Origin: Candidatus Aminicenantales bacterium
GTDB lineage: Bacteria; Acidobacteriota; Aminicenantia; Aminicenantales; Saccharicenantaceae
Direction: 5' to 3'
Length of the DNA stretch: 64,000 bases
Assembly: GCA_049513915.1 (NCBI GenBank)
Contig: JBEKVN010000013.1
Location: forward strand, 78,265-142,264
Position 1 is the stretch's first letter; each line of letters begins with the position of its first letter. Both the position numbers and the translations under genes were made by a program. Shown here one piece after another: positions 7,102 to 52,310 of this stretch. Under the pieces are notes generated by a model. It saw nothing but the letters and a program-made list of their open reading frames with translations, searched no databases and was not told the origin of the DNA.

Positions 7102-7130
7102 TGTACTTCGCGATCTCCAGGAGGTGAACG

Positions 7131-9533
7131 ATGTCCATATGCGGGAAACGCGTCCCGGGAAGAATGTTTCTTCTATCCGCCCTGCTTCTGTCTCTAGCGC
7201 TCATCCCATTTGCCCAGCAGGCCAAGAAGCCGGCGGTCCTTCAGTCCACGAGCCCCGAGCTGCGGCTCAAAGGCTTCGCGGAGTATCAGGCCATGCTCAA
7301 GGCCTCGAAGTTCAAGGACCTGAAATGGCAATATCTCGGCCCGAACAACGTCAGCGGCAGGGTGACGGACGTCGCGGTTGTCGCCCCGAAGGGCAAAAAC
7401 TACACGATCTACGTCGCCGCGGCCTCGGGAGGCGTCTGGAAGACGGAGAACGAGGGCACGACCTGGGCGCCGATCTTCGAACACGAGGTCTCGGCGGCCG
7501 TCGGAGACATCGCCGTCGCCCCGTCGAACCCCCAGATCCTCTGGGTCGGGACCGGCGAGCACAACATTTTCCGGAGTTCCCAGGCCGGCTGCGGCGTTTA
7601 CAAAACGACGGACGGCGGCAAGACGTGGGCCAACATGGGCCTCACCGACACCAACACGATCGCCCGGATCGTCGTCCACCCGAAAAGTCCGGACGTCGTT
7701 TATGTCGCGGCCTCGGGACACGAGTGGACGTCGAACCCCGAGCGGGGCGTCTTCAAAACGACCGACGGCGGCAAGTCCTGGGCCAAAGTCCTCTTCGTCA
7801 ACGACCAGACCGGTGCCGTCGACCTGGTCATGGATCCGAAGGACAACGACACGCTCTACGCCGCCACGTGGCAGCGGACGCGCAAAAAATGGAACGACCC
7901 GCGGAACTTCTCCGACTACACGGGAAGTGGGATTTACAAGACCACCGATGCGGGCAAGACGTGGAATCCCATCAACGCCGGCCTTCCGGAGGCGAAGTCC
8001 CGCGGCCGGATCGGGCTCGATATCTGCCTGACGAAGCCCAACGTTCTCTACACGCTGGTCGACAATTACGAGATCGCCCGCAAGCCGACGGCCGAGGAGC
8101 AGACGGATTCCTACGGCCTCCCCTCGAGCGGGATCATCAAGGGGGCCACGGTCTACCGCTCCGACGACGGCGGCGCCTCCTGGAAACAGGTGAGCGGCCT
8201 CACACCCGAACAGAAGACCTTCATGGAACGCCACTCCAACACCTACGGCTGGGTCTTCGGCCAGATCCGCGTCGACCCCAACGACGCCGATACCGTGTAC
8301 ATCATGGGCGTGCCGTTCAGCGTCTCGACGGACGGGGGCAAGACCTTCGCCCATGTCGAGAGCCCGGGCGGCGACAACCACGCCCTGTGGATCGACCCGG
8401 ACAATTCGAATTACCTGATCAAGGGCTTCGACCAGGGCGTCGCCGTGTCCTACGACAAAGGCAAGAACTGGCGGTACTGGCAGGACGGGATTCCCGTCTG
8501 TCAGTTCTTCAATATCGCCTATGACATGGCGACGCCTTTCAAAGTCTACGGCTCGATGCAGGACCACGGCAGCTTCCGGGCGCCCGTGGACCTCAGCCAG
8601 GGCCGGGACAAGATCCCCGTCCAAAAGTTCGAGAACGCCCCCGGCGGCGAGGGCTCGAACCAGGCCATCGACCCGAACGATCCCAACGTCGTCTTTTCGG
8701 CGGGCTTCTATGGGACCATCATGCGCTCCGACTACGGCAAACCCGGCGAATATCCCGGCTGGCCCTACACCAAGTCGCTCCTGCCCGCGCCTTACGAGAA
8801 CGAGCCCCGCCTCCGCGGCCAGTGGCTCGCGCCGTTCATTCTCTCCCCGGTCAACCCCAATATCGTCTACCACGGCATGCAGTTCGTCTTCCGGTCGCTC
8901 GACAGGGGCGACACGTGGGAAAAAATCAGCCCCGATCTGACATGGAACACGGCATCGGAAATGGGCGATATCCCCTACCATACCCTCTTCGCCATCTCCG
9001 AGTCGCCGCTCCGGTTCGGCCTCGTATACGCCGGGACCGACGACGGCCGGCTCTGGGTCACGAAGGACGGCGGCAAGGCCTGGCAGGAGATCACGGCCGG
9101 CCTCCCGCCCGGGAAATGGATGTCGCGCGTCGTCGCCTCGTCCTACAAGCTGGGCACGGTGTATCTCACCCAGAACGGGAAACGGGACGACGATTTCACG
9201 CCGTACGTCTGGAAATCGGCGGACTACGGCAAGACCTGGGTGAGCATCGCCAAGGGCATCCCCGTCGGTCCGGTCAACGTCATCCGGGAAGACCCCGTGA
9301 ACGAAGACATCCTCTACGTGGGGACAGATATGGGCGTCTACGTCACGACCGACGGCGGGAAGACCTGGATGACCCTGGGGTCGAACCTGCCGACCGCCTA
9401 CGTCCACGACCTGATCATCCACCCGAGGGACAACGTTATTGTCATCGCGACCCACGGCCGAGGCATGTGGGCCCTCGACGCCAACCCGGTCAACGAGAAA
9501 GACAAGCGGCGGAACTTCTTTTACGGGGACTGA
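7131..9533 (+). CDS. secreted BNR/Asp-box repeat protein (sortilin/VPS10- or GH74-like beta-propeller glycosidase)
   Basis: Signal peptide. At least 8 S/T-x-D-x-G-x-T/S-W/F Asp-box motifs (GGVWKTENEGTTW, TDGGKTW, TDGGKSW, TDAGKTW, SDDGGASW, STDGGKTF, TKDGGKAW, TDGGKTW). Confidence 0.7.
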   Translation: MSICGKRVPGRMFLLSALLLSLALIPFAQQAKKPAVLQSTSPELRLKGFAEYQAMLKASKFKDLKWQYLGPNNVSGRVTDVAVVAPKGKNYTIYVAAASGGVWKTENEGTTWAPIFEHEVSAAVGDIAVAPSNPQILWVGTGEHNIFRSSQAGCGVYKTTDGGKTWANMGLTDTNTIARIVVHPKSPDVVYVAASGHEWTSNPERGVFKTTDGGKSWAKVLFVNDQTGAVDLVMDPKDNDTLYAATWQRTRKKWNDPRNFSDYTGSGIYKTTDAGKTWNPINAGLPEAKSRGRIGLDICLTKPNVLYTLVDNYEIARKPTAEEQTDSYGLPSSGIIKGATVYRSDDGGASWKQVSGLTPEQKTFMERHSNTYGWVFGQIRVDPNDADTVYIMGVPFSVSTDGGKTFAHVESPGGDNHALWIDPDNSNYLIKGFDQGVAVSYDKGKNWRYWQDGIPVCQFFNIAYDMATPFKVYGSMQDHGSFRAPVDLSQGRDKIPVQKFENAPGGEGSNQAIDPNDPNVVFSAGFYGTIMRSDYGKPGEYPGWPYTKSLLPAPYENEPRLRGQWLAPFILSPVNPNIVYHGMQFVFRSLDRGDTWEKISPDLTWNTASEMGDIPYHTLFAISESPLRFGLVYAGTDDGRLWVTKDGGKAWQEITAGLPPGKWMSRVVASSYKLGTVYLTQNGKRDDDFTPYVWKSADYGKTWVSIAKGIPVGPVNVIREDPVNEDILYVGTDMGVYVTTDGGKTWMTLGSNLPTAYVHDLIIHPRDNVIVIATHGRGMWALDANPVNEKDKRRNFFYGD

Positions 9534-9534
9534 G

Positions 9535-10131
9535 ATGCCCCGGCTTGGCCGGGAGACGGGCGCTCTGCCGGGGCTGACCGTCGAACTCGAGGGCGTCGGG
9601 CCCATGCTCTTCGAGAAGAGCCGGCGTGCCCGGCGGGTCTCGGTGACCATCCGTTCCTCCCTAGGCGTCCGGGTGGCCGTTCCCACGCGTGTTTCATTCG
9701 AGGAGGCCCGACGGCTCGCGGCGGCCAAGCGCTTCTGGATCCGGCGGACGCTCGCCCGGGTCGAGCGGGCCCGGGGTCGGTGCCGGGAAGCGGTTCTCGC
9801 CGCCGGCCAACTCGACAAACGATCCGCCCGCGCTCTGCTCGAACGGCGGCTGGAGGAGCTGGCCGCGGAGCATGGCTTCATCTGCCCAGGACTCAGCGTC
9901 CGGACCCAGAGCACCCTCTGGGGAAGCGCCTCGCCCTCGGGACGCGTTCAGCTCAACGCCCACCTGGCCGTTCTACCGCAAGAGTTGGCCGATTACGTCA
10001 TCATCCACGAACTCGTCCACACCCGCGTCCGGGGCCACGGCCGGGCATTCTGGACGGAGCTCGCGCGGCACGTTGCCGATGTCCGCGGCTGCCGGGCCCG
10101 CCTCCGCGAATATTCGCTGGCGCTGTTTTGA
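9535..10131 (+). CDS. M48-family/YgjP-like (DUF45) zinc metallohydrolase
   Basis: HExxH zinc motif IIHELVHTRVRGH near the C-terminus. Size and layout match YgjP/SprT-like proteins. The start at 9535 was chosen just after the upstream stop. Confidence 0.65.
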   Translation: MPRLGRETGALPGLTVELEGVGPMLFEKSRRARRVSVTIRSSLGVRVAVPTRVSFEEARRLAAAKRFWIRRTLARVERARGRCREAVLAAGQLDKRSARALLERRLEELAAEHGFICPGLSVRTQSTLWGSASPSGRVQLNAHLAVLPQELADYVIIHELVHTRVRGHGRAFWTELARHVADVRGCRARLREYSLALF

Positions 10132-10240
10132 CCGGAACGAGAGAAGGTTCAGCGCGCCGGGCCATCGTCTCGCCGGTAAACCAATCCGGGCGCGTCTTCG
10201 TAAATGGAAATGATAAGATTCGCACCGAGGAGGAGAATTC

Positions 10241-10798
10241 ATGGATGACCCAGATCTGAAAGAAATCCGCGATGCCATCGGGAAACTGACCCTGCGCAAC
10301 CGCCGGCTCACGTGGGCGTTGACGGCGTCCGTGTCCGTCCTGGCTCTCGGGATCATCGCGCTGTCCGTTTTCAGATTTCCGTCGAAGAGCGCTGTTCCTG
10401 CCGATGGCGTCCTCACGCTCCGCGGGCTGGTCATCCTCGACGCCAACGGCGTGGAACGGGTCAGGATCCAGGCCCCCCTCCCCGACCCCCTGATCCTGGG
10501 CAAGCGGTTTCCTCGCGGCGGGGCGGTCAGCGGCATTCTATTGTCCGACGAGGAAGGCAACGAGCGGAGCGGCTACGTGACCTCCGACGGCTACCCCAAC
10601 GTCTTTTTCACCCTGGACAGCCTGGCCCGCCAGCACGTCCTCTTCATCACGGAACCGCAAGGCGACCCAACGCTGCGACTGTGGGATGGGGCAAGCGCCG
10701 CCACGCTTTCGGCGGGATCGGACGGCCCCGGCCTGAAACTCACGGCCGGAGAAAAAACGCTGCTGGAAATCCCCGCCCGCCGGCCGGCGGGCAAATAA
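10241..10798 (+). CDS. hypothetical membrane-anchored protein
   Basis: RBS GAGGAGG 8 nt upstream. One N-terminal TM helix (LTWALTASVSVLALGIIALSVF). No recognisable catalytic motif. Confidence 0.45.
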   Translation: MDDPDLKEIRDAIGKLTLRNRRLTWALTASVSVLALGIIALSVFRFPSKSAVPADGVLTLRGLVILDANGVERVRIQAPLPDPLILGKRFPRGGAVSGILLSDEEGNERSGYVTSDGYPNVFFTLDSLARQHVLFITEPQGDPTLRLWDGASAATLSAGSDGPGLKLTAGEKTLLEIPARRPAGK

Positions 10799-10811
10799 GG
10801 GAGGCGGGGCC

Positions 10812-11825
10812 ATGAAAATGTCGGCCAAATTCTTCTTCGGTTGCTTGGTCGCGTGCGGGGGGATTCTCGCCGCTCCGCGCCTCCCCGCTCAAGAAGGCGT
10901 TGGGGCTTCCGGAATCTGGAAAGGGCATGAGGCCGGGATCAGCGGCGTGGCCTTGAACCCGGACGGATCCCGGCTCGCGACGAGCGGGTTGGACGGAGCG
11001 GTCCGGCTCTGGGACACGGCCTCCGGCCGGGTCCTCCGGGTTCTGCGCAGCCGCGATGCCGAGTTCTACGCCGTCTCGTTTTCGCGGGAAGGGAAATTCG
11101 TCGTTGCGACCGGAGATAAAGGAATGGTGACGGTTTTCGACGCTCAATCAGGGAGCATCCTCCGGGAGCTCCGGGGGCTTGAGGGTTGGTCGGCGGGTTT
11201 GGCTCTCTCTCCCGACGGCCGGTTCGCGGCGGCCTGGAGCATGGACGGTCGCGTCCTCGTTTGGGACATCGAGGGCGACGGGAAGCCGCGTGTCCTCGCG
11301 GGAGACGCCAGGAAATGGGGGATGGCGCTGGCGTGGTCCCCCAACGGCCGCGTTTTGGCGGCAGGGAGGGCGTCCATCACGCTCTGGGACGTCGAAAAAG
11401 GTGTTCGCATGGGAGATCTTTCCGGCCACAGGGATTTCGTCAGGGATCTGACGTTTTCGCCGGACGGGCGCCTCCTGGCGTCGACGGGCCTCGACAAAAC
11501 AGTCAGGGTTTGGGACGTCCCGGCCACCCGCGAACGCTATGCCCTCAGGCCTGAAGGCTTTGTTCATCCCTCGACCCAAGGTCCCGTGACCGAACCGATC
11601 CGTGTTCCCCTGCTCGCGGTGCGTTTCTCTCCCGACGGAAAAACGCTGGCGACCGCCGGGGCCGACCGCCTCGTGCGCCTCTGGGACGCCGAAACCGGGC
11701 GTTTTATCCGGGCCTTCCAGGGGCATGCCATGAGCGTCACGGGGCTGGCATTCAGCCCGGACGGGAAAACCCTTTATTCCGCCAGCCTGGACAAAATCAT
11801 CCGTGTCTGGCGGCTTAAGCCCTAA
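10812..11825 (+). CDS. WD40-repeat beta-propeller protein with signal peptide
   Basis: RBS GGGAGG. Repeated WD40 units ending in LWD/VWD/TVFD (GAVRLWDTASG, VRVWDVPA, LVRLWDAETG, IIRVWRL). Confidence 0.7.
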   Translation: MKMSAKFFFGCLVACGGILAAPRLPAQEGVGASGIWKGHEAGISGVALNPDGSRLATSGLDGAVRLWDTASGRVLRVLRSRDAEFYAVSFSREGKFVVATGDKGMVTVFDAQSGSILRELRGLEGWSAGLALSPDGRFAAAWSMDGRVLVWDIEGDGKPRVLAGDARKWGMALAWSPNGRVLAAGRASITLWDVEKGVRMGDLSGHRDFVRDLTFSPDGRLLASTGLDKTVRVWDVPATRERYALRPEGFVHPSTQGPVTEPIRVPLLAVRFSPDGKTLATAGADRLVRLWDAETGRFIRAFQGHAMSVTGLAFSPDGKTLYSASLDKIIRVWRLKP

Positions 11826-11884
11826 GGAAGACCTGGACTTCGCGGAAAGCTTTCGCCGGTCCTTTTGCTAAAGGACAATGTAAT

Positions 11885-11953
11885 ATCTACTTGACATTTT
11901 GTATACTATATATTACATTCATTTGCATAAGCAAAGCAAAGGAGGCTTAGAAG
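11885..11953 (+). promoter_or_regulatory. AT-rich promoter island with TTGACA and TATACT/TATATT boxes and RBS AAAGGAGG
   Basis: About 70 bp at under 30% GC in a 66% GC background. Contains TTGACATTTTGTATACTATATATTACAT. Sits immediately upstream of the membrane-protein/XRE gene pair. Confidence 0.35.
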
Positions 11954-12418
11954 ATGCATCCACAGGTCAAACACGCAAGATTTAATCTGATCGTTTGCGC
12001 CGTCACGGTGGCGGTGACGGCGGCAGCCTATGTGGTGGCATTGGCTTTGGTCGGTCCTCACAGGGCGCGGGGCGCTTTCGGATTCCTGGGATTTCTGGGA
12101 CTGCTCGGCTTGGGCCCGACCTTCTACCGAGAGAAACTGGCCGAAGGCGGCGTGGTCCTTGACGAACGCGACAAGCAGATCGCGGACCGTTCCCGAGTGA
12201 TCGCGTGGAGCGTCACCTGGCTTTACTGGTGTTTGGTATGCATGGGCGTGTGGCTCTGGGTGGCGCTTCGATCGGGCCTTGCGGCCTTGGAGGCCCCGTT
12301 CGTACCCGCGGAATGGCCGCCGTTGGTTTTAATGGCGGCGTTAATTGTCTTTATGATGGCCTGGTCCATATCCATCCTGGTCCATTATCGGCGAGGGGAT
12401 GTGGCGGGCGATGAGTGA
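11954..12418 (+). CDS. small 4-TM membrane protein (DUF2178-like) partnered with XRE regulator
   Basis: Four hydrophobic helices. Stop overlaps the start of the next gene (ATGA). Confidence 0.5.
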   Translation: MHPQVKHARFNLIVCAVTVAVTAAAYVVALALVGPHRARGAFGFLGFLGLLGLGPTFYREKLAEGGVVLDERDKQIADRSRVIAWSVTWLYWCLVCMGVWLWVALRSGLAALEAPFVPAEWPPLVLMAALIVFMMAWSISILVHYRRGDVAGDE

Positions 12419-12617
12419 GCTGACCAACCGGATCCGCCGCTTCCGGTTTGACTGCGGCGAGATGACGCAGCAGGAACTGGCGGAGAAGGCCGGCGTCACC
12501 CGCCAGACGATTATCGCGCTCGAAGCGAACCGGTACGTCCCGTCCCTGCTGCTCGCTCATCGCATTTCCCACGTATTCGCCGTTCCGATCGAAGATGTCT
12601 TTCAATTTGACGATTAA
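12414..12617 (+). CDS. XRE-family helix-turn-helix transcriptional regulator (Cro/CI type)
   Basis: 67 aa with HTH motif MTQQELAEKAGVTRQTIIALEANRYVPS. Start ATG overlaps the upstream stop. Confidence 0.75.
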   Translation, partial: SELTNRIRRFRFDCGEMTQQELAEKAGVTRQTIIALEANRYVPSLLLAHRISHVFAVPIEDVFQFDD

Positions 12618-12638
12618 GGCCTGGGAAAAAAGGGCTGA

Positions 12639-12667
12639 TTTAAATCCTCCATCGCATTTGCTATAAT
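12639..12667 (+). promoter_or_regulatory. promoter-like TTTAAA-17-TATAAT upstream of DPP4 gene
   Basis: -10 TATAAT at 12662-12667. RBS AGGAGG precedes the ATG at 12717. Confidence 0.3.
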
Positions 12668-12716
12668 CCCCGCCTTGCTCATGCCACAGAACGTTCCTTT
12701 CTAGGAGGTCTCATCC

Positions 12717-15437
12717 ATGTCTCATCCAACCAGTCTCCGAAAGGCCGTCGCTCCGGCGGCCACGTTGGTTATTTTCCTGAGCTTTGCGATTCTGAGCCCG
12801 GCCGCCGCCCCCGGCGCCGAAATGAAGAAGGCCGACAAGGCCAACTATGAGCTGGCCGCGCGCTTTACCTCGGCCAAGGTCGGGAAGCTCGTCTTCGACA
12901 CTTCCGTCCAGGCCCACTGGCTCGAGACGGGCGACAGGTTCTGGTACAGCTGGGAAACGAGCAAGGGACGGTCGTTTTCCATCGTCGACCCCCTGCGCGC
13001 CACGAAGAGCCCGCTCTTCGACAACGCCCGGATGGCGGCCCTGCTGACCGGGATCGTCCTGACCCCGTATGACTCCCAGCACCTGCCCTTCCGGACCGTG
13101 AAATTCATCGACAAAGACACGGCCCTCCGCCTGGAGCTCGAGGTCCAGAAGGACTCGGACGTCCGCCTCGGGGACAAGATCGTCAAGGCCGGGGACATCG
13201 AGAAGAAGCGCGAAGACGCCAAGAAGGCCAAGGAGGAGGAGGCCAAGACGCAGGAGAAGAAAGACCAAGAGAAGAAGGAGCAGGACAAGAAGGACCTGGA
13301 AAAGAAGGAGCTGGATAAAAAGGACCAGGATAAAAAAGACGCCGATAAGGACAAGGCCAAGGAGCCCGAGAAAAAAACGACCACCCTCTATTTCGAGTAT
13401 CAGCTCGCCACGGGCACGCTGACGCTCCTCCCCGACTACGAGGCGCCGCCCAAGCGGCCCAAATGGGCGTCCGTTTCCCCCGATGAAAAAATCGTCATCT
13501 TCGCCCGCGGCTTCAACCTCTTCATGATGGACGCCGAGAACTTCAAGCTGGCCCAGAAAAAAGCCGACGACGCGGCCATCAAGGAGGTCCAGCTCACGAC
13601 CGACGGCGAGGAGCACTATTCCTACGCCCGTGACCTCAATGAGGAAGATAAGAAGGAGCTCCAGAAGGACGAGAAGGACCGCAAGGATTACCGCGTCCCG
13701 GCCGGCTATATCGTCTGGTCCAAGGACTCGAAAAAGTTCGCCTGTGTCCGCGAGGACGAACGCAAGGTGGGCGACCTCTGGGTTATTAACGTCCTGGCCA
13801 ACCCGCGCCCGACGCTCGAAACCTACCGCTACGCCATGCCGGGCGAGGAAAACCAGGCCCAGCCCGAGCTCCTCGTTTTCGATATCGCGAGCAAGGGCAA
13901 GGTCAAGATCAAGGCCGACGGCTTCAAGGACCAGACCCTGGGGGTCGAGACAGCGCCCCGCCGCAACGTGGACCGCGAGAAGGACTTTCCGCCTCCGTCC
14001 CAGTGGCTGAGCGACACGTCGGACAAGCTCTATTTCGGGCGCCAGAGCCGGGACCTCCACAAGTATGACGTCTGCGTCGCCGACACGGCGACCGGCGACG
14101 TGAAGGTCTTGATCGAGGAGCGCCTGAATACCTATATCGACGTCGAGTCCCTCCGCCTTGTCAACGGCGGCAAAGAAATGGTCTGGTGGTCCGAGCGCGA
14201 CGGCTGGGGCCATTACTACCTCTATGACGGCGACGGCAAGCTCAAGTCGCAGATCACTTCCGGCGAGTTCACCTGCCAGGGGATCGAGGGCGTCGACGAG
14301 AAGACCCGCGTCCTCTACTTCAACGCCTGCGGCCGCGAGCCGAGCGAGGACCCCTACTTTTTCCACCTCTACCGGGTCAACCTGGACGGCACGGGGCTCC
14401 GGCTCCTCAACCCCGGCGACGCCAATCACGGGGCCGACGCCGACGACAACCTGCGCGTGTTCATTGACACGTTCTCGCGCGTCAACACGGCCCCGGCCTC
14501 GGAGCTGCGGGACATGATGGGGAACGTCGTCCTCAAGCTCGAAACGACGGACACGGGCGCTCTTGTCGAGGCCGGCTACAAGTTCCCCGAGCCGTTCAAG
14601 GTCAAGGCCGACGACGGCATCACCGATCTCTACGGCGTCATGTACAAACCCTTCGACTTCGACCCCGCCGTGAAGTATCCGATCATCGCTTACGTCTATC
14701 CGGGCCCCCAGACCGAGAGCGTAACCAAGACCTTCTCGCCCCGGAACGGCAACGTCGCCCTGGCCCAGCTCGGGTTCATCGTCATCGAAGTCGGCAACCG
14801 CGGCGGCAACCCCATGCGCTCGAAGTGGTACCACAACTACGGCTATGGCAACCTCCGCGACTACGGCCTGGCCGACAAGAAGCGGGCCATCGAGGAGCTG
14901 GGCATCAGGTACCCCTATATCGACGCCGACCGGGTCGGCATCTACGGCCACTCGGGCGGCGGTTTCATGACGGCCGCAGCCCTGCTCGTCTATCCCGATT
15001 TCTTCAAGGTCGGCGTGTCCTCGTCCGGAAACCACGAGAACAACATCTACAACCGCTGGTGGAGCGAAAAGCATCACGGCGTCAAGGAAGTCACGGACAA
15101 GGAAGGGAACATCAAGTTCGAGTACAGCATCGAGAAGAACTCCGAGATCGCCAAGAACCTCAAGGGCCACCTCCTGCTCACGACGGGGGACATGGACAAC
15201 AACGTCCACCCGGGGAACACCATCCGGCTGGCCAACGCCCTGATCAAGGCCAATAAGCGCTTCGACTTCTTCCTCTTCCCGGGCCAGCGCCACGGCTACG
15301 GCGACATGAACGACTACTGGTTCTGGATCCGGGCCGACTACTTCGCCAAGTACCTGCTCGGCGATTTCTCCCAGACCGTCGACCTCATCGAACTGCAGAA
15401 GGAGAAAGAGCAAACGGGGGACAAGAAGGGACGGTAG
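12717..15437 (+). CDS. dipeptidyl peptidase IV (S9B prolyl oligopeptidase family) with Lys/Glu-rich insert
   Basis: Signal peptide. DPP4-type N-terminal propeller and a C-terminal alpha/beta hydrolase with catalytic GHSGGG serine motif, later Asp and His (DNNVHP). A 60-aa K/E/D-rich low-complexity insert lies at aa 161-220. Confidence 0.85.
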   Translation: MSHPTSLRKAVAPAATLVIFLSFAILSPAAAPGAEMKKADKANYELAARFTSAKVGKLVFDTSVQAHWLETGDRFWYSWETSKGRSFSIVDPLRATKSPLFDNARMAALLTGIVLTPYDSQHLPFRTVKFIDKDTALRLELEVQKDSDVRLGDKIVKAGDIEKKREDAKKAKEEEAKTQEKKDQEKKEQDKKDLEKKELDKKDQDKKDADKDKAKEPEKKTTTLYFEYQLATGTLTLLPDYEAPPKRPKWASVSPDEKIVIFARGFNLFMMDAENFKLAQKKADDAAIKEVQLTTDGEEHYSYARDLNEEDKKELQKDEKDRKDYRVPAGYIVWSKDSKKFACVREDERKVGDLWVINVLANPRPTLETYRYAMPGEENQAQPELLVFDIASKGKVKIKADGFKDQTLGVETAPRRNVDREKDFPPPSQWLSDTSDKLYFGRQSRDLHKYDVCVADTATGDVKVLIEERLNTYIDVESLRLVNGGKEMVWWSERDGWGHYYLYDGDGKLKSQITSGEFTCQGIEGVDEKTRVLYFNACGREPSEDPYFFHLYRVNLDGTGLRLLNPGDANHGADADDNLRVFIDTFSRVNTAPASELRDMMGNVVLKLETTDTGALVEAGYKFPEPFKVKADDGITDLYGVMYKPFDFDPAVKYPIIAYVYPGPQTESVTKTFSPRNGNVALAQLGFIVIEVGNRGGNPMRSKWYHNYGYGNLRDYGLADKKRAIEELGIRYPYIDADRVGIYGHSGGGFMTAAALLVYPDFFKVGVSSSGNHENNIYNRWWSEKHHGVKEVTDKEGNIKFEYSIEKNSEIAKNLKGHLLLTTGDMDNNVHPGNTIRLANALIKANKRFDFFLFPGQRHGYGDMNDYWFWIRADYFAKYLLGDFSQTVDLIELQKEKEQTGDKKGR

Positions 15438-15455
15438 GTCTTTAGGTGCGGCTGG

Positions 15456-16154
15456 CTAGAATCTTACGCCGAGAAGCATGACGAGGGCGTTGGGTTTGGA
15501 CCTCGAAAAGCCCGAATAGCTTTCGGACAGGATATTCCATACACCCCAATGGTAGCGTACTTCCAGAGACAGCGCGGCCGCACGGGCCGCTAACTCGAGG
15601 CCGGCCCCGAATACGATCGCGGCGTCGAAGCTCTTGGTGATGTCCCGGAGGTTTTCTTCATTTCCAGCCGGCCCCGTCGAATCCGCGCGCGGCTCGGCGA
15701 CGTGAGAAAGAACGTAAGCGAGCTCGATGCCGCTGGCAATGAAAGGCGAGGTGCCCCTCCGGAGCCTAAACTTCAGGAGCAGGGGCAGGCTGATTTCTTC
15801 AAGCTTGAAAACGGTCCTTTCCAGCAGGGCTCCATCCCGCCACTCTGAGAAGTCGTTTCCTTTCTGAACATACATGATGTCCGCTTCCAAGGCGAAGAGG
15901 CGGGATACCGGAAACTCGACTCCCATGCCGAAGCCGAACCCCGGCCGATACCCGTAATCCGTCGCGAAGCGTCCGGAGGCATCATAACGGGACAGGCTAA
16001 ACCCTCCCATGACCTTGTATTCGCGGGCGTCGACCTCGAAAGTTAAGCCAACGAACATGAGGAGCCCCAAAGTCGCCTTCCTCCAGAGGGCCGGGCGCCG
16101 GATCGCCATTAATGGCAAGCTCAAATTTGGTGCTCCTCTGTTGGATGAACTCAT
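15456..16154 (-). CDS. outer-membrane beta-barrel protein (porin/OmpA-like barrel)
   Basis: Alternating amphipathic beta-strands and C-terminal ...LLGVRF ending in Phe. Real start is probably the internal Met of the signal peptide (MAIRRPALWRKATLGLLMF) near 16109. Confidence 0.55.
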   Translation of the reverse strand: MSSSNRGAPNLSLPLMAIRRPALWRKATLGLLMFVGLTFEVDAREYKVMGGFSLSRYDASGRFATDYGYRPGFGFGMGVEFPVSRLFALEADIMYVQKGNDFSEWRDGALLERTVFKLEEISLPLLLKFRLRRGTSPFIASGIELAYVLSHVAEPRADSTGPAGNEENLRDITKSFDAAIVFGAGLELAARAAALSLEVRYHWGVWNILSESYSGFSRSKPNALVMLLGVRF

Positions 16155-16164
16155 CTCATGCCCT

Positions 16165-16719
16165 TCACTTGAACCGGTAGCCGATCCCTATTGCGGCCTG
16201 GAACCCCCCGACATTGAATGATAACTCGACGGGTGTCATCCGGCATGTGGAATATTGAAGATGAAGGTCGACGAACCACTTCGTCTGCAACGGAAATTGG
16301 CCCCCGGCCTCGACCGCCGGGCCCCAGCGTCCATAAGTGACGTCCCCGATGGGATTTACCTCCCTGAAGACATGATAAAGGACGCCTACTCCGGCAAAGA
16401 GCCTGAAGATCCCCGCCGGACGGACGACCCTCAGCCCGCCGCCGGCCGGGACGAGCCAGAGCTTCGTTTGCTCCCCCGTCGGAATCAGGTGGCCCTTCTT
16501 GTAGACAAGGTCGGCGCTCACCCAAAGCTCCAGGCTCTTCCAGACCGCGGAAGAGCCCTCGATCCCCCAGCATGTCCCCCCACCGTAGATGGACTTGAAA
16601 TCGGAATCCGAAGGCTGAAAATATCCGCCCCTGACCGTGACGCTCGTTCCGTTGGCGGCGGCTGCCGGCACAAACAGCAGAAGGAGTATTGAGAACAGGG
16701 CGAGCTTTCTCATGATCAC
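16165..16719 (-). CDS. outer-membrane beta-barrel protein
   Basis: Signal peptide MRKLALFSILLLLFVPAAAA. Beta-strand pattern with C-terminal GIGYRFK. Confidence 0.55.
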   Translation of the reverse strand: MIMRKLALFSILLLLFVPAAAANGTSVTVRGGYFQPSDSDFKSIYGGGTCWGIEGSSAVWKSLELWVSADLVYKKGHLIPTGEQTKLWLVPAGGGLRVVRPAGIFRLFAGVGVLYHVFREVNPIGDVTYGRWGPAVEAGGQFPLQTKWFVDLHLQYSTCRMTPVELSFNVGGFQAAIGIGYRFK

Positions 16720-17375
16720 CTGGCAGCCGGCGGCTTATAGATGAAGTCAACGGCTATACCCTCTCCGCCGTCGGCGGTCACGCCCCAAACCTGGTAGAGA
16801 TAGGAGCCGCTCCGCTGAACGTGGTATTGATAATACCGGAAAGCGCCGCCGCCGACTTCCTCCAGCTTCTCGGAACCTTCCGAGATAACCCAGAGGTCCC
16901 CCCACGGAATGGGACCTAAAACATAGATCCTGTATTTCACGATGTTCAGGTCGTCGTTGACCGGGTTGGGCTCCCATGTCACCTCGTTGGTGTAATCCGC
17001 CATGGCCAGGGAACGCGTCATTAGGGTCCTGGCCGCGAAATTGAGCGGCGGAGAGAACAAGAGCCCTCCGGTGATCGTGACGTTGAGGCGAGTCAGCGGA
17101 AGGGCCTGGGCCGTGACCGTTGTCTCCTGTGACACCAACGAGACAGGAACCGGTTCGGCGGACGAAACCTGCACCTCGAGGCCGGCCGTCCCCACGAATC
17201 CGGGCAGACGCTCGATGAGGCCTTCGGATGAGGCCTTCATGAGGAGGAATCGGAGTCCCCCAAGGCCGTTTATGGTCGTCGTCCCCCCGATGAAGTAGGC
17301 CCCGTCGGCCGCGGGGAGCACGGACAGGCCATCGGACCAACGGCCCGCAACCCCATCGTTTCCGTACGTCCGCTG
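16716..17375 (-). CDS. C-terminal segment of secreted repeat protein, in frame with upstream ORF and separated only by TGA at 17376-17378
   Basis: Manual translation shows ...TPDGEIE-TGA-QRTYGNDGVAGRWSDGLSVLPAADGAYFIGG in a single frame. This segment holds a possible Ig/FN3-like domain (EVTWEPNP...KYRIYV). There is no ATG of its own; the ORF track used GTG. Confidence 0.45.
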   Translation of the reverse strand, partial: QRTYGNDGVAGRWSDGLSVLPAADGAYFIGGTTTINGLGGLRFLLMKASSEGLIERLPGFVGTAGLEVQVSSAEPVPVSLVSQETTVTAQALPLTRLNVTITGGLLFSPPLNFAARTLMTRSLAMADYTNEVTWEPNPVNDDLNIVKYRIYVLGPIPWGDLWVISEGSEKLEEVGGGAFRYYQYHVQRSGSYLYQVWGVTADGGEGIAVDFIYKPPAAR

Positions 17376-18635
17376 TCACTCGATTTCCCCGTCAGGAGTC
17401 AGCTTCGCGAGAAGAGCCCGCCCGTAATTGAATGGGGAAAAAGAATTCGTTTCGCCGGCCGCAATATAGCCTCCATCCGGCGTCTGCTGGATGGATCTGA
17501 ATCGCTCGTCGTAACTCCCGTGGTAGGTCTTTGTCCACTCGACGGCGCCCCCCGCCGAGAGTTTCATGGCCCAGGCATCCCCGTTAAACAAACTCCCGGT
17601 CTCCGCGGCGCTCCCGACCAGGATCGACCCTCCGTCGCCTGTCGGTTTGAAGGAAAGGACGCTAATACCGGACCCCTCATAGGCCGTCTGCCCTTCGATG
17701 TCGCCCGAGGACGAGAGCCGAAGGAGCAGGAGACTCGTGTCGCTTCCGCTTCCCGGAGAAAAAGCAAAGCCGCAAACAGCGTAACCGCCGTCAGACGTCT
17801 GGTAGAAGCCGGAGGGGGCTTCGTCAAGCGTCCCCCCGTAGGTCTTCTGCCAAGCCGGGTTCCCGCTCGAGTCGAGCTTGATCAGGAGGATATCCGATTC
17901 GTCCGGAATGCCGCCCCCCCCCGGGTCACCTGAACTCGCCGCGAGGAGATAGCCTCCGTCGCCTGTTTGCTGAAGGTCGGTGAAATAGTCCCGCTTGCCT
18001 TCGTGATCATATTGCCGCTGCCATTCGATGTCGCCGTTGGAAAGGAACTTGACCGCCAGTAGGCCCGACGAGTTCTCGCCGCCGGCGACGACTCCCCCGT
18101 CGCTCGTCGGATGGATGGACCGGATAAATTGAGTGTATCCCTGTCCTTTCCCCTGTCTGTAAACCCGCTGCCATTCGATCTCGCCCTCGGCGTTCACCTT
18201 CATGACGCAACTGTCATAGGATGCGGGAATTTGAGTCGATGTGTGGCCCAGCAGGAAAAGACCGCCGTCCAGGGCTGGCGACATCCGGAAGCCATAAATA
18301 ACGCCGTTGTTCGAAATGTCCATCGTCCCGGGTCTCGAATAGGTCCTGGCCCACGTCTGGCGGCTCCCGTTGACGCCGCCTCGATATGGGCCGGCCGCGC
18401 GCGTCCGCGCACTGTCCTTCTCCCGGGGCTCCGCTTTTTGGCCGGCCGGGGGCCGCTTCTGCAGGAATTCCCGTGTGTCGACGCCGCCTGGTGAGGGTTT
18501 AGAATTCGGATTTGGGAAACGGGCGTTCGAAGTCGCGGCCACTCCGGCGATCAGAAGGAAGAATAATGCCGACGATCGGACAAGGAATCCAATTCCGGGA
18601 GTTTTTTTCGTTGGCGCGTCCAAGCTCATTTTCAT
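17376..18635 (-). CDS. secreted repeat protein (N-terminal part), about 45-aa repeats with DGGY/GDIEWQ motifs
   Basis: N-terminal hydrophobic signal/anchor. Repeats TSDGGYAV, TGDGGYLL, TPDGGYIA, NGDIEWQRQY, GEIEWQRVY, SGDIEGQ. Ends at a TGA that is in frame with the next ORF. Confidence 0.6.
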   Translation of the reverse strand: MKMSLDAPTKKTPGIGFLVRSSALFFLLIAGVAATSNARFPNPNSKPSPGGVDTREFLQKRPPAGQKAEPREKDSARTRAAGPYRGGVNGSRQTWARTYSRPGTMDISNNGVIYGFRMSPALDGGLFLLGHTSTQIPASYDSCVMKVNAEGEIEWQRVYRQGKGQGYTQFIRSIHPTSDGGVVAGGENSSGLLAVKFLSNGDIEWQRQYDHEGKRDYFTDLQQTGDGGYLLAASSGDPGGGGIPDESDILLIKLDSSGNPAWQKTYGGTLDEAPSGFYQTSDGGYAVCGFAFSPGSGSDTSLLLLRLSSSGDIEGQTAYEGSGISVLSFKPTGDGGSILVGSAAETGSLFNGDAWAMKLSAGGAVEWTKTYHGSYDERFRSIQQTPDGGYIAAGETNSFSPFNYGRALLAKLTPDGEIE

Positions 18636-18800
18636 CCTCTCCCCCGGCCGAATTCGCGGCCGCTCGTTTCAACCCCTGGATACTATCAATCTAGGTTCCC
18701 GGCCCGCCGTTGTCAATGTCCGGCTTCGACAGGGAGAAAATCCCTCTTTTCTTCGCTCGCATTTTGTTATAAAACTGAGCCCGAGAAGAGGTGCCCGCCC

Positions 18801-20129
18801 ATGAACGATAACGCATCCAACGCCGCGTCTCCTCCCGCTCCGCATGCCGGGCCCGCGTCCGCCGCGCCGCCCGCCCGCCACTACGGGATGGTCGCCTTGA
18901 TCTTCCTGACCTTCTTCGTCATCTCGCTCCTGACCAACATCATCGGCCCGCTGGTCCCCGATATCATCAAGAGCTTCGAGCTCAGCCTGACCCTGGTCGC
19001 GCTTCTCCCCTTCGCCTTCTTCATCGCCTACGGATTCATGTCCATCCCGGCCGGCATGCTCCTCGAGAAAACCCGGGAAAAGCCGGTCATGATCGCCGCC
19101 TTCACGCTGGCCTTCGCGGGGGCCATGCTTTTTTCGCTTTTCCCCCGCTACGCGACGGCCATCCTGTCGCTTTTCTTGATCGGGGCCGGCATGGCCGCCC
19201 TCCAGGTGGCCATCAACCCGCTCCTCCGCGTCTCGGGCGGCGAGGAGCATTTCGCCTTCAACTCGGTCATGGCCCAGCTCGTCTTCGGCGGGGCCTCCTT
19301 CCTCAGCCCGTACATCTATTCCTATTTCGTCCGGAACCTGGGCCAGCCCGGCGGCGAGGGCAAGCCGCTCGTCGGCCTGATGTCGAAGCTCGTGCCGGCG
19401 TCGCTCCCCTGGGTATCCGTGTACTGGGTGTTCGCGGTCCTCGTCATCGTGATGATCGCGGTTTTGGCCCTCGCGCGCTTCCCGCTCGTTGTCAAAAAGG
19501 AGGAGGAGCGGGCCGGCGCCTGGGCCACGCACAAAGCGCTCTTTAAGAACAAGGTTGTCCTGCTTTACTTCCTGGGGATCTTCACCTACGTCGGTACGGA
19601 GCAGGGCGTCGCCAACTGGATCTCCCAGTTCCTCGTGACCTACCACAAGTACGATCCTCAGACCATCGGGGCGAGCAAGGTGTCCCTCTTCTGGGGCATG
19701 ATGACGATCGGCGGGATCCTCGGCCTCGTCCTCCTCAAGCTCTTCGACAGCCGGAAGGTCCTGGTCGGGTTCGCGGCCGCGGCCATCGTCTTCTTGACCC
19801 TGGCCCTTTTCGGGCCGGGACCGTTGGCCCTGGTCATGTTCCCGCTCATGGGATTCGCCGCCTCGGTCATGTGGCCCATCATTTTCTCCCTGGCCCTGAA
19901 CTCGGTCTCGAGCCACCACGGCTCCTTCTCCGGGATTCTCTGCACGGGCATCATCGGGGGGGCCCTCGTGCCGCTCGTCATCGGCCGCCTCGGTGACACA
20001 TACGGTCTCCGCCAGGGCATGTTCTTCCTGTACCTGACCCTTGGCTACATCCTGAGCATCGGACTCTGGGCGAAACCGATCATCCTCAACGAAACGATCG
20101 CCCGAAAAAGACAGAGGGAGGCCGCGTGA
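18801..20129 (+). CDS. MFS sugar transporter (FucP / glucose-galactose transporter family)
   Basis: 12 predicted TM helices with MFS signature. Stop overlaps the ROK kinase start. Confidence 0.75.
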   Translation: MNDNASNAASPPAPHAGPASAAPPARHYGMVALIFLTFFVISLLTNIIGPLVPDIIKSFELSLTLVALLPFAFFIAYGFMSIPAGMLLEKTREKPVMIAAFTLAFAGAMLFSLFPRYATAILSLFLIGAGMAALQVAINPLLRVSGGEEHFAFNSVMAQLVFGGASFLSPYIYSYFVRNLGQPGGEGKPLVGLMSKLVPASLPWVSVYWVFAVLVIVMIAVLALARFPLVVKKEEERAGAWATHKALFKNKVVLLYFLGIFTYVGTEQGVANWISQFLVTYHKYDPQTIGASKVSLFWGMMTIGGILGLVLLKLFDSRKVLVGFAAAAIVFLTLALFGPGPLALVMFPLMGFAASVMWPIIFSLALNSVSSHHGSFSGILCTGIIGGALVPLVIGRLGDTYGLRQGMFFLYLTLGYILSIGLWAKPIILNETIARKRQREAA

Positions 20130-28075: not shown

Positions 28076-29137
28076 TCAGTGGCCGTGACGATGATGCGTG
28101 TCCGGCCAATGGCCGTGGGCATGTTCGGTCCCCTCATGGACGTGTTCGTGGGTGTGGGGTTCCCGGATCGGGCCGTCGTGCGCGTGGAGATGGTGAAGGT
28201 CCGCATGGCTGTGGGAATGGGTGTGTGTGGTCCTCTCATGCCTGTGGGCGTGGGCGTGCCTCTCGCCGACGATCAGGGCGACGGCCACGGCCATCAGCAT
28301 CCCGGCCGCCGCCATGGGCCAGCGGACGGCGTCCCTCAAGAGGACGAGCGCGACCAGCGACCCGGCAAACGGCCCGAAACTGAAAAAAGCCCCCGTCCGG
28401 AACGCCCCCAGGCCCTTGAGGGCCCGGATAAACAGGACCAGGCTCAATCCGTAGCAGACGGCTCCGATGAGCAATCCGTAGGCGGCCGCCGCCCCCAGCC
28501 GATATCCTTGTCCCAGGATAAAAGCCGCGGCCGTCGAAACAGCCCCGGCGGCGAGCCCCTTGATCCTGGCAATTTCGACCGGGTCCTTATCCGAGATCTG
28601 GCGCGTCAAGTTGTTATCAAGCCCCCAGCCGATCATCGCGGCGAGAACCAGGACGGGGCCCGTCAGATTGAACCGGCCTTGCCCGGGGTTCCAGGAAAGC
28701 AGCACGCCGGCCGCGGTCATCATGGCCAGGGCCAGCCAGGTCCTCCTCCCCGCATTCTCCCGGAATAGAAAAACGGCGATGAGCGCCGTGGCCAAGCCTT
28801 CAAAGTTCAGGAGGAGCGAGGCCGAAAATCCGGATATCCGGCTCAAGCCCTCCATCAGGCAAACCGGTCCGATGATGCCTCCCGTGAGGACCGCCCCGGC
28901 CAGCCAGGGAAGGTCCTTTTTTTCGAGGTGGGCTTCCCCGCCCCCCGCGGAGCCGTCCCTCGGGCCCACTGCCCGCCTGGTCACGGAATAGGCCGAGAGG
29001 CCGAGAAAAACGCCCAGATACAGGAGGCCCGCCAGCGCGACGGGGCGGACGTCCCCGAGCAGGAGCTTGGCCAGGGGAGTGCTGACGCCGAACAACACCG
29101 CCGAGAGAAGGACCGCGACGACCGGTTTCACGTTCAT
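28076..29137 (-). CDS. DMT-superfamily (EamA-like) transporter with His-rich C-terminal tail
   Basis: 10 TM helices with duplicated EamA halves. C-terminal roughly 60 aa is HxH-rich (HAHAHRHERTTHTHSHSHADLHHLHAHD...HGHWPDTHHRHGH). Confidence 0.7.
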   Translation of the reverse strand: MNVKPVVAVLLSAVLFGVSTPLAKLLLGDVRPVALAGLLYLGVFLGLSAYSVTRRAVGPRDGSAGGGEAHLEKKDLPWLAGAVLTGGIIGPVCLMEGLSRISGFSASLLLNFEGLATALIAVFLFRENAGRRTWLALAMMTAAGVLLSWNPGQGRFNLTGPVLVLAAMIGWGLDNNLTRQISDKDPVEIARIKGLAAGAVSTAAAFILGQGYRLGAAAAYGLLIGAVCYGLSLVLFIRALKGLGAFRTGAFFSFGPFAGSLVALVLLRDAVRWPMAAAGMLMAVAVALIVGERHAHAHRHERTTHTHSHSHADLHHLHAHDGPIREPHTHEHVHEGTEHAHGHWPDTHHRHGH

Positions 29138-52053: not shown

Positions 52054-52061
52054 TTTTTTTT

Positions 52062-52245
52062 ACATCAGGAGAGGCTCGATCCTAACCGATCGGACCCGGC
52101 AACCTGGGGCGGACACCCGAGGTGCTCACTCGCCAGCGGCGAGGATGTGGTCGCGAAAGCGAACGCGGCAACCAAGTGTCCAACGGCCGACAAACCCGCC
52201 TTCCTGATGATAGAGAGGTGGGTTTTTTTGCGGCCGCGCATTGAC
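52062..52245 (+). promoter_or_regulatory. SAM riboswitch (SAM-I clan: SAM-I/SAM-IV-like) in metK 5-prime leader
   Basis: P1 strands CATCAGGAG (52064-52072) and CTTCCTGATG (52200-52209). Conserved core AGGAGAGGC...GGACCCGGCAACC resembles SAM-I ...AGAGAGGCGGAGGGA...GCCCGGCAACC. Followed by a hairpin plus T7 tract. metK lies directly downstream. Confidence 0.55.
52191..52228 (+). terminator. putative riboswitch expression-platform terminator (ACCCGCC...GGTGGGT + TTTTTTT)
   Basis: 7-bp stem with one G-U around a 16-nt loop, overlapping the P1 3-prime strand, followed by a seven-T run at 52222-52228. Confidence 0.3.
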
Positions 52246-52310
52246 CCGCCGCGACCCCACCTCCCCTGACCGATCTCCGAGACACCCGGCGTTCCGGAAA
52301 GGAGGCTTCG

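What the first reader, a model, noticed from the sequence alone, without database searches (positions are those of the whole stretch)
16716..18635. Secreted repeat protein interrupted by a single in-frame TGA (17376-17378)
Manual translation of the minus strand gives ...LLAKLTPDGEIE-TGA-QRTYGNDGVAGRWSDGLSVLPAADGAYFIGG... in one frame. So ORFs 17376-18635 and 16716-17321 are one roughly 640-aa protein split by one stop: a signal peptide, about 45-aa DGGY/GDIEWQ repeats, then an FN3/Ig-like C-terminal domain. Candidates are a recent nonsense mutation (pseudogene), an assembly or sequencing error, programmed readthrough, or selenocysteine. No obvious SECIS hairpin follows the UGA, and the protein has no redox context, so Sec is unlikely.
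Basis: seen in the sequence. Interest (0 to 1): 0.55.

Follow-up and report, generated by a model that had tools for sequence, protein, structure and literature searches.

The report
Secreted propeller gene broken by Trp-to-stop mutation
One base change (TGG to TGA) at a conserved tryptophan has cut a secreted beta-propeller gene of an uncultured Aminicenantales bacterium into two reading frames; it is an ordinary, young nonsense mutation, not selenocysteine or an unusual genetic code.

Summary
Minus strand 18635..16716 is one 640-codon frame with a single internal TGA at 17378..17376. Nineteen full-length homologues (530-637 aa, best 72% identical) span both halves as one protein, and all have Trp at that column. 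Ten orthologous loci all read TGG there. The stop is therefore a single TGG>TGA transition in the recurring G-[DE]-I-E-W-Q-R-x-Y motif. It lies at the start of the seventh repeat of a seven-bladed beta-propeller that is followed by an FN3-like domain.

The same TGA is in two public assemblies made with different assemblers. These differ from each other by one base elsewhere, so an assembler artefact is unlikely.

TGA is an ordinary stop in this genome: 23 of 41 likely genes end with it, and 311 TGG but no in-frame TGA occur in 19,370 other codons. There is no SECIS-like signal.

The rest of the gene shows no decay. dN/dS downstream of the stop is 0.25, against 0.34 upstream.

Best reading: a recent nonsense allele, either a young pseudogene or a leaky hypomorph. 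Any background UGA misreading by Trp-tRNA would restore the exact wild-type residue.

Interest is low.

The parts
16716..18635 (-). Whole disrupted gene: 640 codons including one internal and one terminal TGA. It is the orthologue of a 620-637-aa Aminicenantes secreted beta-propeller + FN3-like protein.
   Evidence: single frame; 19 homologues span both halves; P0001 is 72% identical over 100% of the length; conserved gene order.
17376..17378 (-). Premature TGA (codon 420) in context GAG TGA CAG. It replaces the TGG (Trp) of the motif GEIE-W-QRTYG. On the + strand this is a C>T change at 17376.
   Evidence: 10 of 10 orthologous loci have TGG. Trp in 19 of 19 homologues; the same motif inside this gene uses TGG at codons 155, 205 and 367.
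17379..18635 (-). 5' ORF (419 aa): signal-peptide-like N-terminus, a low-complexity linker and propeller repeats 1-6.
   Evidence: public gene calls give 417 aa (ENA, Logan, JGI) or 315 aa (NCBI, ABSG19_06550).
18522..18635 (-). Signal-peptide-like segment, residues 1-38: MKMSLDAPTKKTPGIGFLVRSSALFFLLIAGVAATSNA.
   Evidence: Read from the sequence. Homologues have comparable hydrophobic N-termini. No signal-peptide predictor was available, so this is an inference.
17232..18353 (-). Seven-bladed beta-propeller region, residues about 95-468 (28 strands, 7 x 4). The stop falls in the first strand of the seventh four-strand unit.
   Evidence: AlphaFold model of orthologue P0001 has 28 strands between residues 93 and 465, with 10-residue block means mostly above 90 in this region. 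W417 of P0001 (equivalent to window codon 420) lies in strand 415-421; best PDB match is the CylK propeller; weak DUF5122 / delta-60 repeat hits.
16716..17375 (-). In-frame remainder downstream of the stop (219 codons plus the stop): propeller repeat 7, a linker and the FN3-like domain. Databases call it as a 201-aa 'hypothetical protein' starting at GTG 17321.
   Evidence: NCBI ABSG19_06545; dN/dS 0.25 against orthologue L026; no Shine-Dalgarno-like sequence and no promoter-like site before GTG 17321. It has no signal peptide of its own.
16737..17045 (-). FN3-like beta-sandwich domain, residues about 531-633.
   Evidence: model of the window's own C-terminal 159 aa has seven strands, with 10-residue block means mostly above 85 over residues 51-159; the top Foldseek PDB matches are fibronectin type III domains (target-normalised TM-score 0.6-0.8). 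Pfam gives no fn3 hit.
18688..18716 (-). Promoter-like site (TTGACA-17-TAGATT, 10 of 12 matches) about 50 nt upstream of the ATG at 18635.
   Evidence: This is a consensus match only.
15456..16713 (-). Two downstream outer-membrane beta-barrel genes (182 aa and 217-232 aa) in the same orientation. The first starts 2 nt after the propeller gene's stop and is preceded by AGGTGATC.
   Evidence: PF13505 / PF13568 hits. The same arrangement follows P0001 and the L002 orthologue.

Best explanation
The two ORFs are one gene. It encodes a secreted protein made of a signal peptide, a disordered linker, a seven-bladed beta-propeller and an FN3-like domain, and it is conserved in Aminicenantes. In this Aminicenantales population it carries a real, evolutionarily recent nonsense mutation: TGG (Trp420) changed to TGA, which is a C>T transition on the + strand at 17376.

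Under standard decoding, ribosomes stop at codon 420 and release a 419-aa fragment. That fragment lacks the seventh propeller unit and the FN3-like domain, so the propeller cannot close and the protein is most likely non-functional. The downstream 219 codons have no start signal or signal peptide of their own.

UGA is the leakiest stop codon, and the near-cognate tRNA that misreads it is Trp-tRNA. A small fraction of ribosomes (per cent level or below in E. coli) would therefore insert exactly the ancestral residue and make wild-type protein. The allele may thus be a strong hypomorph rather than a complete null.

Shown: single gene; TGG in all relatives; TGA reproducible in two assemblies; TGA is a normal stop in this genome; no decay elsewhere in the gene.

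Inferred: loss of function of the truncated product; a low level of Trp readthrough.
For: - Single frame with one internal TGA.
- Nineteen of 19 homologues are single proteins with Trp at that column.
- Ten of 10 orthologous loci read TGG, with near-identical flanking codons in the closest one: L026 has GAG ATC GAG TGG CAG CGG.
- Gene order is conserved: S9 peptidase, two OMP barrel genes, this gene, divergent MFS transporter, ROK kinase.
- The same TGA is present in ENA ERZ27250059 k141_167633 and in Logan SRR7028477_11030. The ENA contig differs from the window and the Logan contig by one base at window 9277, so these are not copies of one consensus. Identical gene products are also on record from JGI/IMG and NCBI.
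- TGA is a genuine terminator here. Twenty-three of 41 likely genes end in TGA, and 19,370 codons hold 311 TGG and no in-frame TGA. At 28076 a gene ends in TGA and is followed by GGAGGAG and the next ATG. This gene's own terminal TGA coincides with the homologues' C-termini.
- There is no decay. dN/dS against L026 is 0.25 downstream and 0.34 upstream of the stop. The protein has 5 private changes at otherwise invariant columns, within the range of 0-7 seen for the intact homologues.
- The stop removes the seventh four-strand unit and the FN3-like domain.
- In E. coli, UGA readthrough of about 2-4% results from Trp-tRNA competing with RF2 (PMC10570021). UGA is the leakiest stop, read through at 1e-2 to 1e-3 (PMC4989110).
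Against: - No reads were available. A systematic base-call error, or a consensus drawn from a polymorphic site, cannot be excluded.
- It is not known whether the ENA and Logan assemblies come from independent samples.
- No intact allele from the same species was found. The closest intact relative is only 72% identical, so 'recent' rests on the lack of decay rather than on a dated comparison.
- The complete lack of decay fits equally well with the gene still being expressed through efficient readthrough.
- Loss of function of the truncated product is inferred from a structure model of an orthologue, not measured.
Confidence: 0.75

Rival explanations
1. Sequencing or consensus artefact. The organism's real gene has TGG, and the TGA is a systematic base-call error or the consensus of a polymorphic site. 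The gene would then be intact in most or many cells.
For: - Everything else about the gene looks intact.
- Metagenome-assembled genomes do carry errors. The L002 and L004 orthologues look frameshifted.
- All records may derive from one sampling project.
Against: - The same base appears in two assemblies made by different assemblers (the k141-style ENA contig and the Logan contig). These differ at another site, window 9277, so they are independent consensus calls.
- The site is not in a homopolymer.
- None of the other 41 likely genes in 64 kb looks interrupted.
Confidence: 0.12
2. Functional recoding. This lineage decodes this UGA, and perhaps others, efficiently as Trp. The agent would be a suppressor tRNA-Trp(UCA) or a tRNA-Trp(CCA) variant with a 4-bp anticodon stem. 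The gene would then be fully functional although it looks interrupted.
For: - The stop sits exactly at a Trp position.
- The downstream part is under purifying selection like the rest.
- About 0.3% of standard-code bacterial genomes carry suppressor tRNAs, and 4-bp-stem tRNA-Trp promotes UGA readthrough in E. coli (PMC13092985).
- The base after the stop is C. From my own knowledge (Poole, Brown and Tate 1995; the paper is not held), UGA-C is the weakest termination signal in E. coli.
Against: - Only 1 of about 312 Trp positions in the window's likely genes uses TGA, and 23 of 41 genes terminate at TGA.
- No tRNA gene lies in the window.
- The C after the stop belongs to the conserved Gln codon (CAG) of the W-Q motif in all orthologues, so it is inherited rather than selected.
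- A TGG>TGA transition at a Trp codon is also simply the expected way for a nonsense mutation to arise.
Confidence: 0.08
3. Two separate functional genes: a 419-aa secreted six-repeat protein and an independently translated 201-aa protein.
For: Gene callers and the NCBI annotation list two hypothetical proteins.
Against: - No homologue is split at this point. The only disrupted orthologues are the L002 and L004 copies, which look frameshifted, and L023, which has an internal deletion.
- The split cuts a propeller between its sixth and seventh units.
- The downstream ORF has no Shine-Dalgarno-like sequence, no promoter-like site and no signal peptide.
- The 55 codons between the stop and GTG 17321 are still conserved coding sequence.
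Confidence: 0.02
4. Selenocysteine insertion at the UGA.
For: - There is an in-frame UGA.
- A GC-rich hairpin exists downstream. Its stem starts 28 nt after the UGA and its loop is GUC.
Against: - All homologues have Trp at the position, not Cys or Sec, and it is a structural repeat position.
- No Rfam SECIS match was found, even at E up to 10.
- The downstream 86 nt fold no better than shuffled sequence: z = +0.58, with 144 of 200 shuffles folding at least as well.
- The hairpin lies further from the UGA than in E. coli-type SECIS elements (my own knowledge).
- There is no tRNA-Sec gene in the window.
Confidence: 0.01
5. Genome-wide alternative genetic code: translation table 4 (UGA = Trp) or table 25 (UGA = Gly).
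For: A UGA sits at a Trp position.
Against: - Twenty-three of 41 likely genes end at TGA, including ends confirmed by a following ribosome-binding site and start codon, or by the homologues' C-termini.
- There is no in-frame TGA in 19,370 other codons, against 311 TGG.
- The genome is 60-68% G+C.
Confidence: 0.01

Closest known systems
Unitary pseudogene or hypomorphic allele created by a TGG>TGA nonsense transition
   Same: A single-base change at a conserved Trp codon. Orthologues are intact. There is no independent start signal for the downstream part. The rest of the gene is undecayed, as expected for a young lesion.
   Different: Loss of function was not demonstrated. No intact allele from the same species is available for comparison. 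Public annotation lists two hypothetical proteins rather than a pseudogene.
Background (non-programmed) UGA readthrough by near-cognate Trp-tRNA, as measured in E. coli (PMC10570021; PMC4989110)
   Same: The stop is UGA, the inserted residue would be Trp, and here Trp is the ancestral residue. Leaky decoding would therefore give the wild-type protein.
   Different: Nothing was measured in this organism. No stimulatory element is present and the stop is not conserved, so this is incidental leakiness and not a programmed recoding site.
DUF5122 / delta-60 / SBBP-type bacterial beta-propeller repeat proteins with C-terminal Ig/FN3-type domains
   Same: A repeat of about 53 aa with the motifs DGGY and G-x-I-E-W-Q-K-x-Y. 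A seven-bladed propeller is predicted. The protein is secreted, and many relatives carry PKD, Ig-like or FN3 C-terminal domains.
   Different: Sequence scores are below the curated thresholds: DUF5122 23.2 bits against 27, delta-60 repeat 21 bits against 76.5. The function of this Aminicenantes subfamily is unknown.
CylK (Friedel-Crafts alkylating enzyme), beta-propeller domain, PDB 7roo / 7fh6
   Same: It is the best structural match of the orthologue model: Foldseek E = 1e-14, about 430 aligned columns, TM-score about 0.47.
   Different: Only 18% identity. The similarity is confined to the propeller fold, no catalytic residues were compared, and the domain architecture differs. No functional inference is drawn.

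Membership tests
Nonsense-mutation pseudogene (one gene split by a premature stop) | Orthologues encode one continuous protein across the break | tested here: met
   Nineteen of 19 homologues. Eight orthologous loci give a single tblastn segment without stops.
Nonsense-mutation pseudogene (one gene split by a premature stop) | A sense codon one mutational step away sits at the position in relatives | tested here: met
   TGG in 10 of 10 loci.
Nonsense-mutation pseudogene (one gene split by a premature stop) | The stop is real in the DNA, not an artefact | tested here: inconclusive
   The same base is present in two assemblies from different assemblers that differ at another site. No reads could be inspected.
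Nonsense-mutation pseudogene (one gene split by a premature stop) | The downstream part lacks its own expression signals | tested here: met
   No Shine-Dalgarno-like sequence before GTG 17321, no promoter-like site and no signal peptide.
Bacterial selenoprotein gene | Cys or Sec at the UGA position in homologues | tested here: not met
   Trp in 19 of 19 homologues.
Bacterial selenoprotein gene | SECIS hairpin immediately downstream of the UGA | tested here: not met
   No Rfam hit. Fold z = +0.58 against shuffles. The only hairpin begins 28 nt downstream of the UGA.
Bacterial selenoprotein gene | Sec machinery (selA, selB, selC, selD) in the genome | not testable with these tools
   No tRNA genes in the window.
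Genetic code 4 / 25 (UGA as a sense codon genome-wide) | UGA not used as a terminator, and frequent in-frame UGA in conserved genes | tested here: not met
   Twenty-three of 41 likely genes end in TGA, and there are no in-frame TGAs in 19,370 codons. Confirmed gene ends are described.
Programmed stop-codon readthrough | Stop codon conserved among orthologues | tested here: not met
   All orthologues have TGG.
Programmed stop-codon readthrough | Stimulatory downstream RNA structure or context | tested here: not met
   The downstream fold is not different from shuffles. The C after the stop belongs to the conserved CAG codon.
DUF5122 / delta-60 repeat beta-propeller proteins | Score above the curated family threshold | tested here: not met
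   PF17164: 23.2 bits against 27. TIGR02608: 21 bits against 76.5. Several homologues do carry precomputed PF17164 or PF26094 hits.
DUF5122 / delta-60 repeat beta-propeller proteins | Multi-bladed beta-propeller fold | tested here: met
   The model of orthologue P0001 has 28 strands in 7 units and pTM 0.79. Propeller matches in the PDB.
Fibronectin type III domain | FN3 beta-sandwich fold | tested here: met
   Model of the window's C-terminal 159 aa. The top PDB matches are FN3 domains with E of 4e-5 to 1e-3.
Fibronectin type III domain | Sequence match to Pfam fn3 | tested here: not met
   No fn3 hit at E up to 1.

The most novel reading that the evidence does not exclude
[quoted passage not shown] The gene would then be functional, and the TGA would be a tolerated, effectively synonymous change. 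That would be an early, ambiguous step towards UGA>Trp reassignment in a GC-rich free-living lineage.
Probability: 0.04. Interest if true: 0.6.

Novelty: new member of a known kind. Interest (0 to 1): 0.13.

Why it matters
It matters mainly for annotation. The two 'hypothetical proteins' in public records (NCBI ABSG19_06545 and ABSG19_06550, and the 417-aa and 201-aa gene calls in ENA, JGI and Logan) are fragments of one gene and should be merged or flagged as a pseudogene.

Biologically it is one more case of a young loss-of-function or hypomorphic allele in a secreted surface protein of an uncultured bacterium. It would become interesting only if the UGA proved to be efficiently decoded as Trp, and the evidence in this window argues against that.

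Tried and rejected
- An exact look-up of the 419-aa ORF found nothing, because public gene callers start two codons later at 417 aa.
- The search for related loci with the single protein found no relatives in genome or metagenome contigs. The alignment-based scans did.
- P0124, the apparent variant of the downstream ORF in JGI/IMG, differs only by V instead of M at the GTG start. It is therefore not a real variant and could not be looked up.
- Rfam at gathering threshold gave no hit in the gene (its one hit elsewhere in the window is listed under Noticed in passing), and at E up to 10 around the stop it gave no SECIS or recoding element.
- I tested for relaxed selection as a sign of an old pseudogene, using dN/dS and private substitutions. 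There was no signal.
- I checked whether a second same-frame ORF pair, at 28076, was another interrupted gene. It is two genuine genes separated by a ribosome-binding site and an ATG.
- Poole et al. 1995 and Cridge et al. 2006, on UGA-C termination efficiency, are not held in the library. The statement that UGA-C is the weakest E. coli termination signal rests on my own knowledge.
Full report
OBSERVATION. The minus strand from 18635 to 16716 is one reading frame of 640 codons. It has a single internal stop, TGA at 17378..17376 (codon 420, context GAG TGA CAG), and a terminal TGA at 16718..16716. With the gene's own base composition a random codon is a stop with p = 0.032, so 219 further open codons in the same frame would occur by chance with P of about 8e-4.

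ONE GENE, NOT TWO. I joined the two halves, put Trp at the stop position, and searched 5.8 billion proteins. This gave many full-length relatives of 530-637 aa. The best, P0001, is 72% identical over 100% of the query, and the named ones come from Candidatus Aminicenantes or Acidobacteria metagenome-assembled genomes. In an alignment with the 19 closest, every homologue runs through the junction without a gap and every one has Trp at the stop's column.

At the DNA level, all ten orthologous loci fetched from genome and metagenome collections read TGG there. The closest, L026, has GAG ATC GAG TGG CAG CGG where the window has GAA ATC GAG TGA CAG CGG. The stop is therefore a single third-position G>A transition, which is C>T on the + strand at 17376.

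The same motif, G-[DE]-I-E-W-Q-[RK]-x-Y, recurs inside the gene and uses TGG at codons 155, 205 and 367.

Gene order is conserved in the relatives: S9 peptidase, two small outer-membrane beta-barrel genes, this gene, a divergent MFS transporter and a ROK kinase. These are true orthologues.

WHAT THE PROTEIN IS. Sequence libraries give only sub-threshold hits to beta-propeller repeat families: DUF5122 at 23.2 bits against a cut-off of 27, and the delta-60 repeat at 21 bits against 76.5.

An AlphaFold model of orthologue P0001, built from 35 aligned sequences, has mean pLDDT 79.9 and pTM 0.79, and 10-residue block means are mostly above 90 in the folded part. Residues 1-88 are disordered. After that come 28 strands in seven four-strand units (residues 93-465), followed by a beta-sandwich. 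Its best PDB match is the propeller of CylK, with E = 1e-14 and 18% identity. That is a fold-level similarity only.

A model of the window's own last 159 residues matches fibronectin type III domains, with target-normalised TM-scores of 0.6-0.8. Pfam finds no fn3.

The N-terminus has two Lys residues, a hydrophobic stretch and ATSNA. It looks like a signal peptide, but this was judged from the sequence only.

Trp417 of P0001, the equivalent of window codon 420, lies in strand 415-421, the first strand of the seventh unit. Termination at codon 420 therefore removes one propeller unit and the whole FN3-like domain. A six-unit fragment of a seven-bladed propeller is unlikely to fold; this is an inference.

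IS THE TGA REAL? Exact-sequence look-ups show the same split gene calls (417 aa and 201 aa) on two public contigs: ENA ERZ27250059 k141_167633 (84,652 bp) and Logan SRR7028477_11030 (10,028 bp). The Logan contig is 100% identical to window 9038-19065. The ENA contig differs from the window by exactly one base, at window 9277 (A in the window and Logan, G in ENA; Asn or Ser in the gene at 7128-9533). Both carry TGA. These are therefore separate consensus calls from different assemblers.

Identical products are also on record from JGI/IMG and from an NCBI Candidatus Aminicenantales genome (ABSG19_06545 and ABSG19_06550), where the halves are annotated as two hypothetical proteins.

An assembler artefact is thus unlikely. 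A systematic read error or a polymorphic site cannot be excluded without the reads. It is also unknown whether the assemblies come from independent samples.

IS TGA A STOP IN THIS ORGANISM? Yes. Among 41 likely genes in the window (GC3 of at least 0.72), 23 end in TGA, 11 in TAA and 7 in TAG. Their 19,370 codons contain 311 TGG and no in-frame TGA. At 28076 a gene ends ...HGH-TGA and is followed by GGAGGAG and the ATG of the next gene, which has a signal peptide. The propeller gene's own terminal TGA coincides with the homologues' C-termini. A code with UGA as a sense codon genome-wide is excluded.

SELENOCYSTEINE AND PROGRAMMED READTHROUGH. No Rfam family matches around the stop, even at E up to 10. 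The 86 nt from just before the UGA fold no better than shuffled sequence: z = +0.58, with 144 of 200 shuffles folding at least as well. The only sizeable hairpin starts 28 nt after the UGA. There is no tRNA gene in the window. Homologues have Trp at the position, not Cys or Sec, and none has a stop there. Both readings are rejected.

AGE AND STATE OF THE LESION. Against orthologue L026, dN/dS is 0.34 for codons 1-419 and 0.25 for codons 421-639. The window's protein has 5 private changes at columns otherwise invariant among the 19 homologues, counting the stop itself. The intact homologues have 0-7. There is no second stop and no frameshift. The lesion is therefore young relative to the divergence from L026 (dS about 0.54), or the downstream part is still translated.

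The downstream ORF has no Shine-Dalgarno-like sequence before its GTG at 17321 and no promoter-like site. The only good promoter-like match lies at 18716-18688, upstream of the first ATG. The downstream ORF also has no signal peptide. Independent expression as a second secreted protein is implausible.

MOST LIKELY MECHANISM. This is a recent nonsense allele. Most ribosomes terminate at codon 420. In E. coli, UGA is read through at about 2% (37 C) to 4% (25 C) because Trp-tRNA competes with RF2 (PMC10570021). UGA is the leakiest stop, read through at 1e-2 to 1e-3 (PMC4989110). Trp is the ancestral residue here, so any such misreading would give the exact wild-type protein, and the allele may be a strong hypomorph rather than a null.

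The base after the stop is C. From my own knowledge (Poole et al. 1995; not held in the library), UGA-C is the weakest termination context in E. coli. However, this C is simply the first base of the conserved Gln codon of the W-Q motif, so it is inherited rather than selected.

RESIDUAL NOVEL READING. Some standard-code bacteria carry suppressor tRNAs (0.3% of genomes). [quoted passage not shown] That paper does not mention Aminicenantes. The tRNA-Trp gene of this genome could not be reached. With only 1 of about 312 Trp positions using TGA, I put this reading at about 4%.

VERDICT. The finding is an ordinary young pseudogene or hypomorphic allele of a conserved but uncharacterised Aminicenantes secreted propeller protein. 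Its main value is to correct the public annotation. Interest is low.

Noticed in passing
window 52057-52185 (+): A SAM-I/IV riboswitch match just above Rfam's gathering score (42.2 bits against 41.1). It lies directly upstream of the 416-codon ORF at 52245-53495 (+).
   Followed up: no
window 9277: The only difference between the window/Logan contig (A) and ENA contig k141_167633 (G) over 14.7 kb. It changes AAC (Asn) to AGC (Ser) in the 800-aa Sortilin/BNR-type gene at 7128-9533. It is either a polymorphic site or a difference between samples.
   Followed up: partly
window 17691-17693 (-), codon 315: In repeat 5 of the same protein the equivalent conserved Trp is Gly (GDIEGQ, codon GGG). Eighteen of 19 homologues have Trp there and one has Ser. 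This is a second hit on the recurring Trp, but it is not private enough to indicate decay.
   Followed up: partly
L002 7925-9818; L004 5280-6976; L023 2655-3598: Some orthologues are themselves disrupted. In L002 the signal-peptide part is in a different frame from the rest. In L004 the gene is spread over three frames with stops. L023 has an internal deletion of about residues 137-379. The L002 and L004 cases may be indel errors in the assemblies; I could not check how those genomes were sequenced.
   Followed up: partly
window 16716-18635 (public records): The NCBI genome annotation (Candidatus Aminicenantales bacterium, ABSG19_06545 and ABSG19_06550) and the JGI, ENA and Logan gene calls list the two halves as separate hypothetical proteins, not as a pseudogene.
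   Followed up: yes
window 16711-16722 (-): The first downstream outer-membrane barrel gene starts 2 nt after the propeller gene's stop (TGATCATG). It is preceded by AGGTGATC, which from my own knowledge is complementary to the 3' end of 16S rRNA. That gene therefore has its own ribosome-binding site and need not depend on translational coupling.
   Followed up: no
window 28076-28200 (-): The EamA-type transporter gene at 28076-29137 ends in a long His-rich tail (...HAHAHRHERTTHTHSHSHADLHHLHAH...HGHWPDTHHRHGH), which may bind metal.
   Followed up: no
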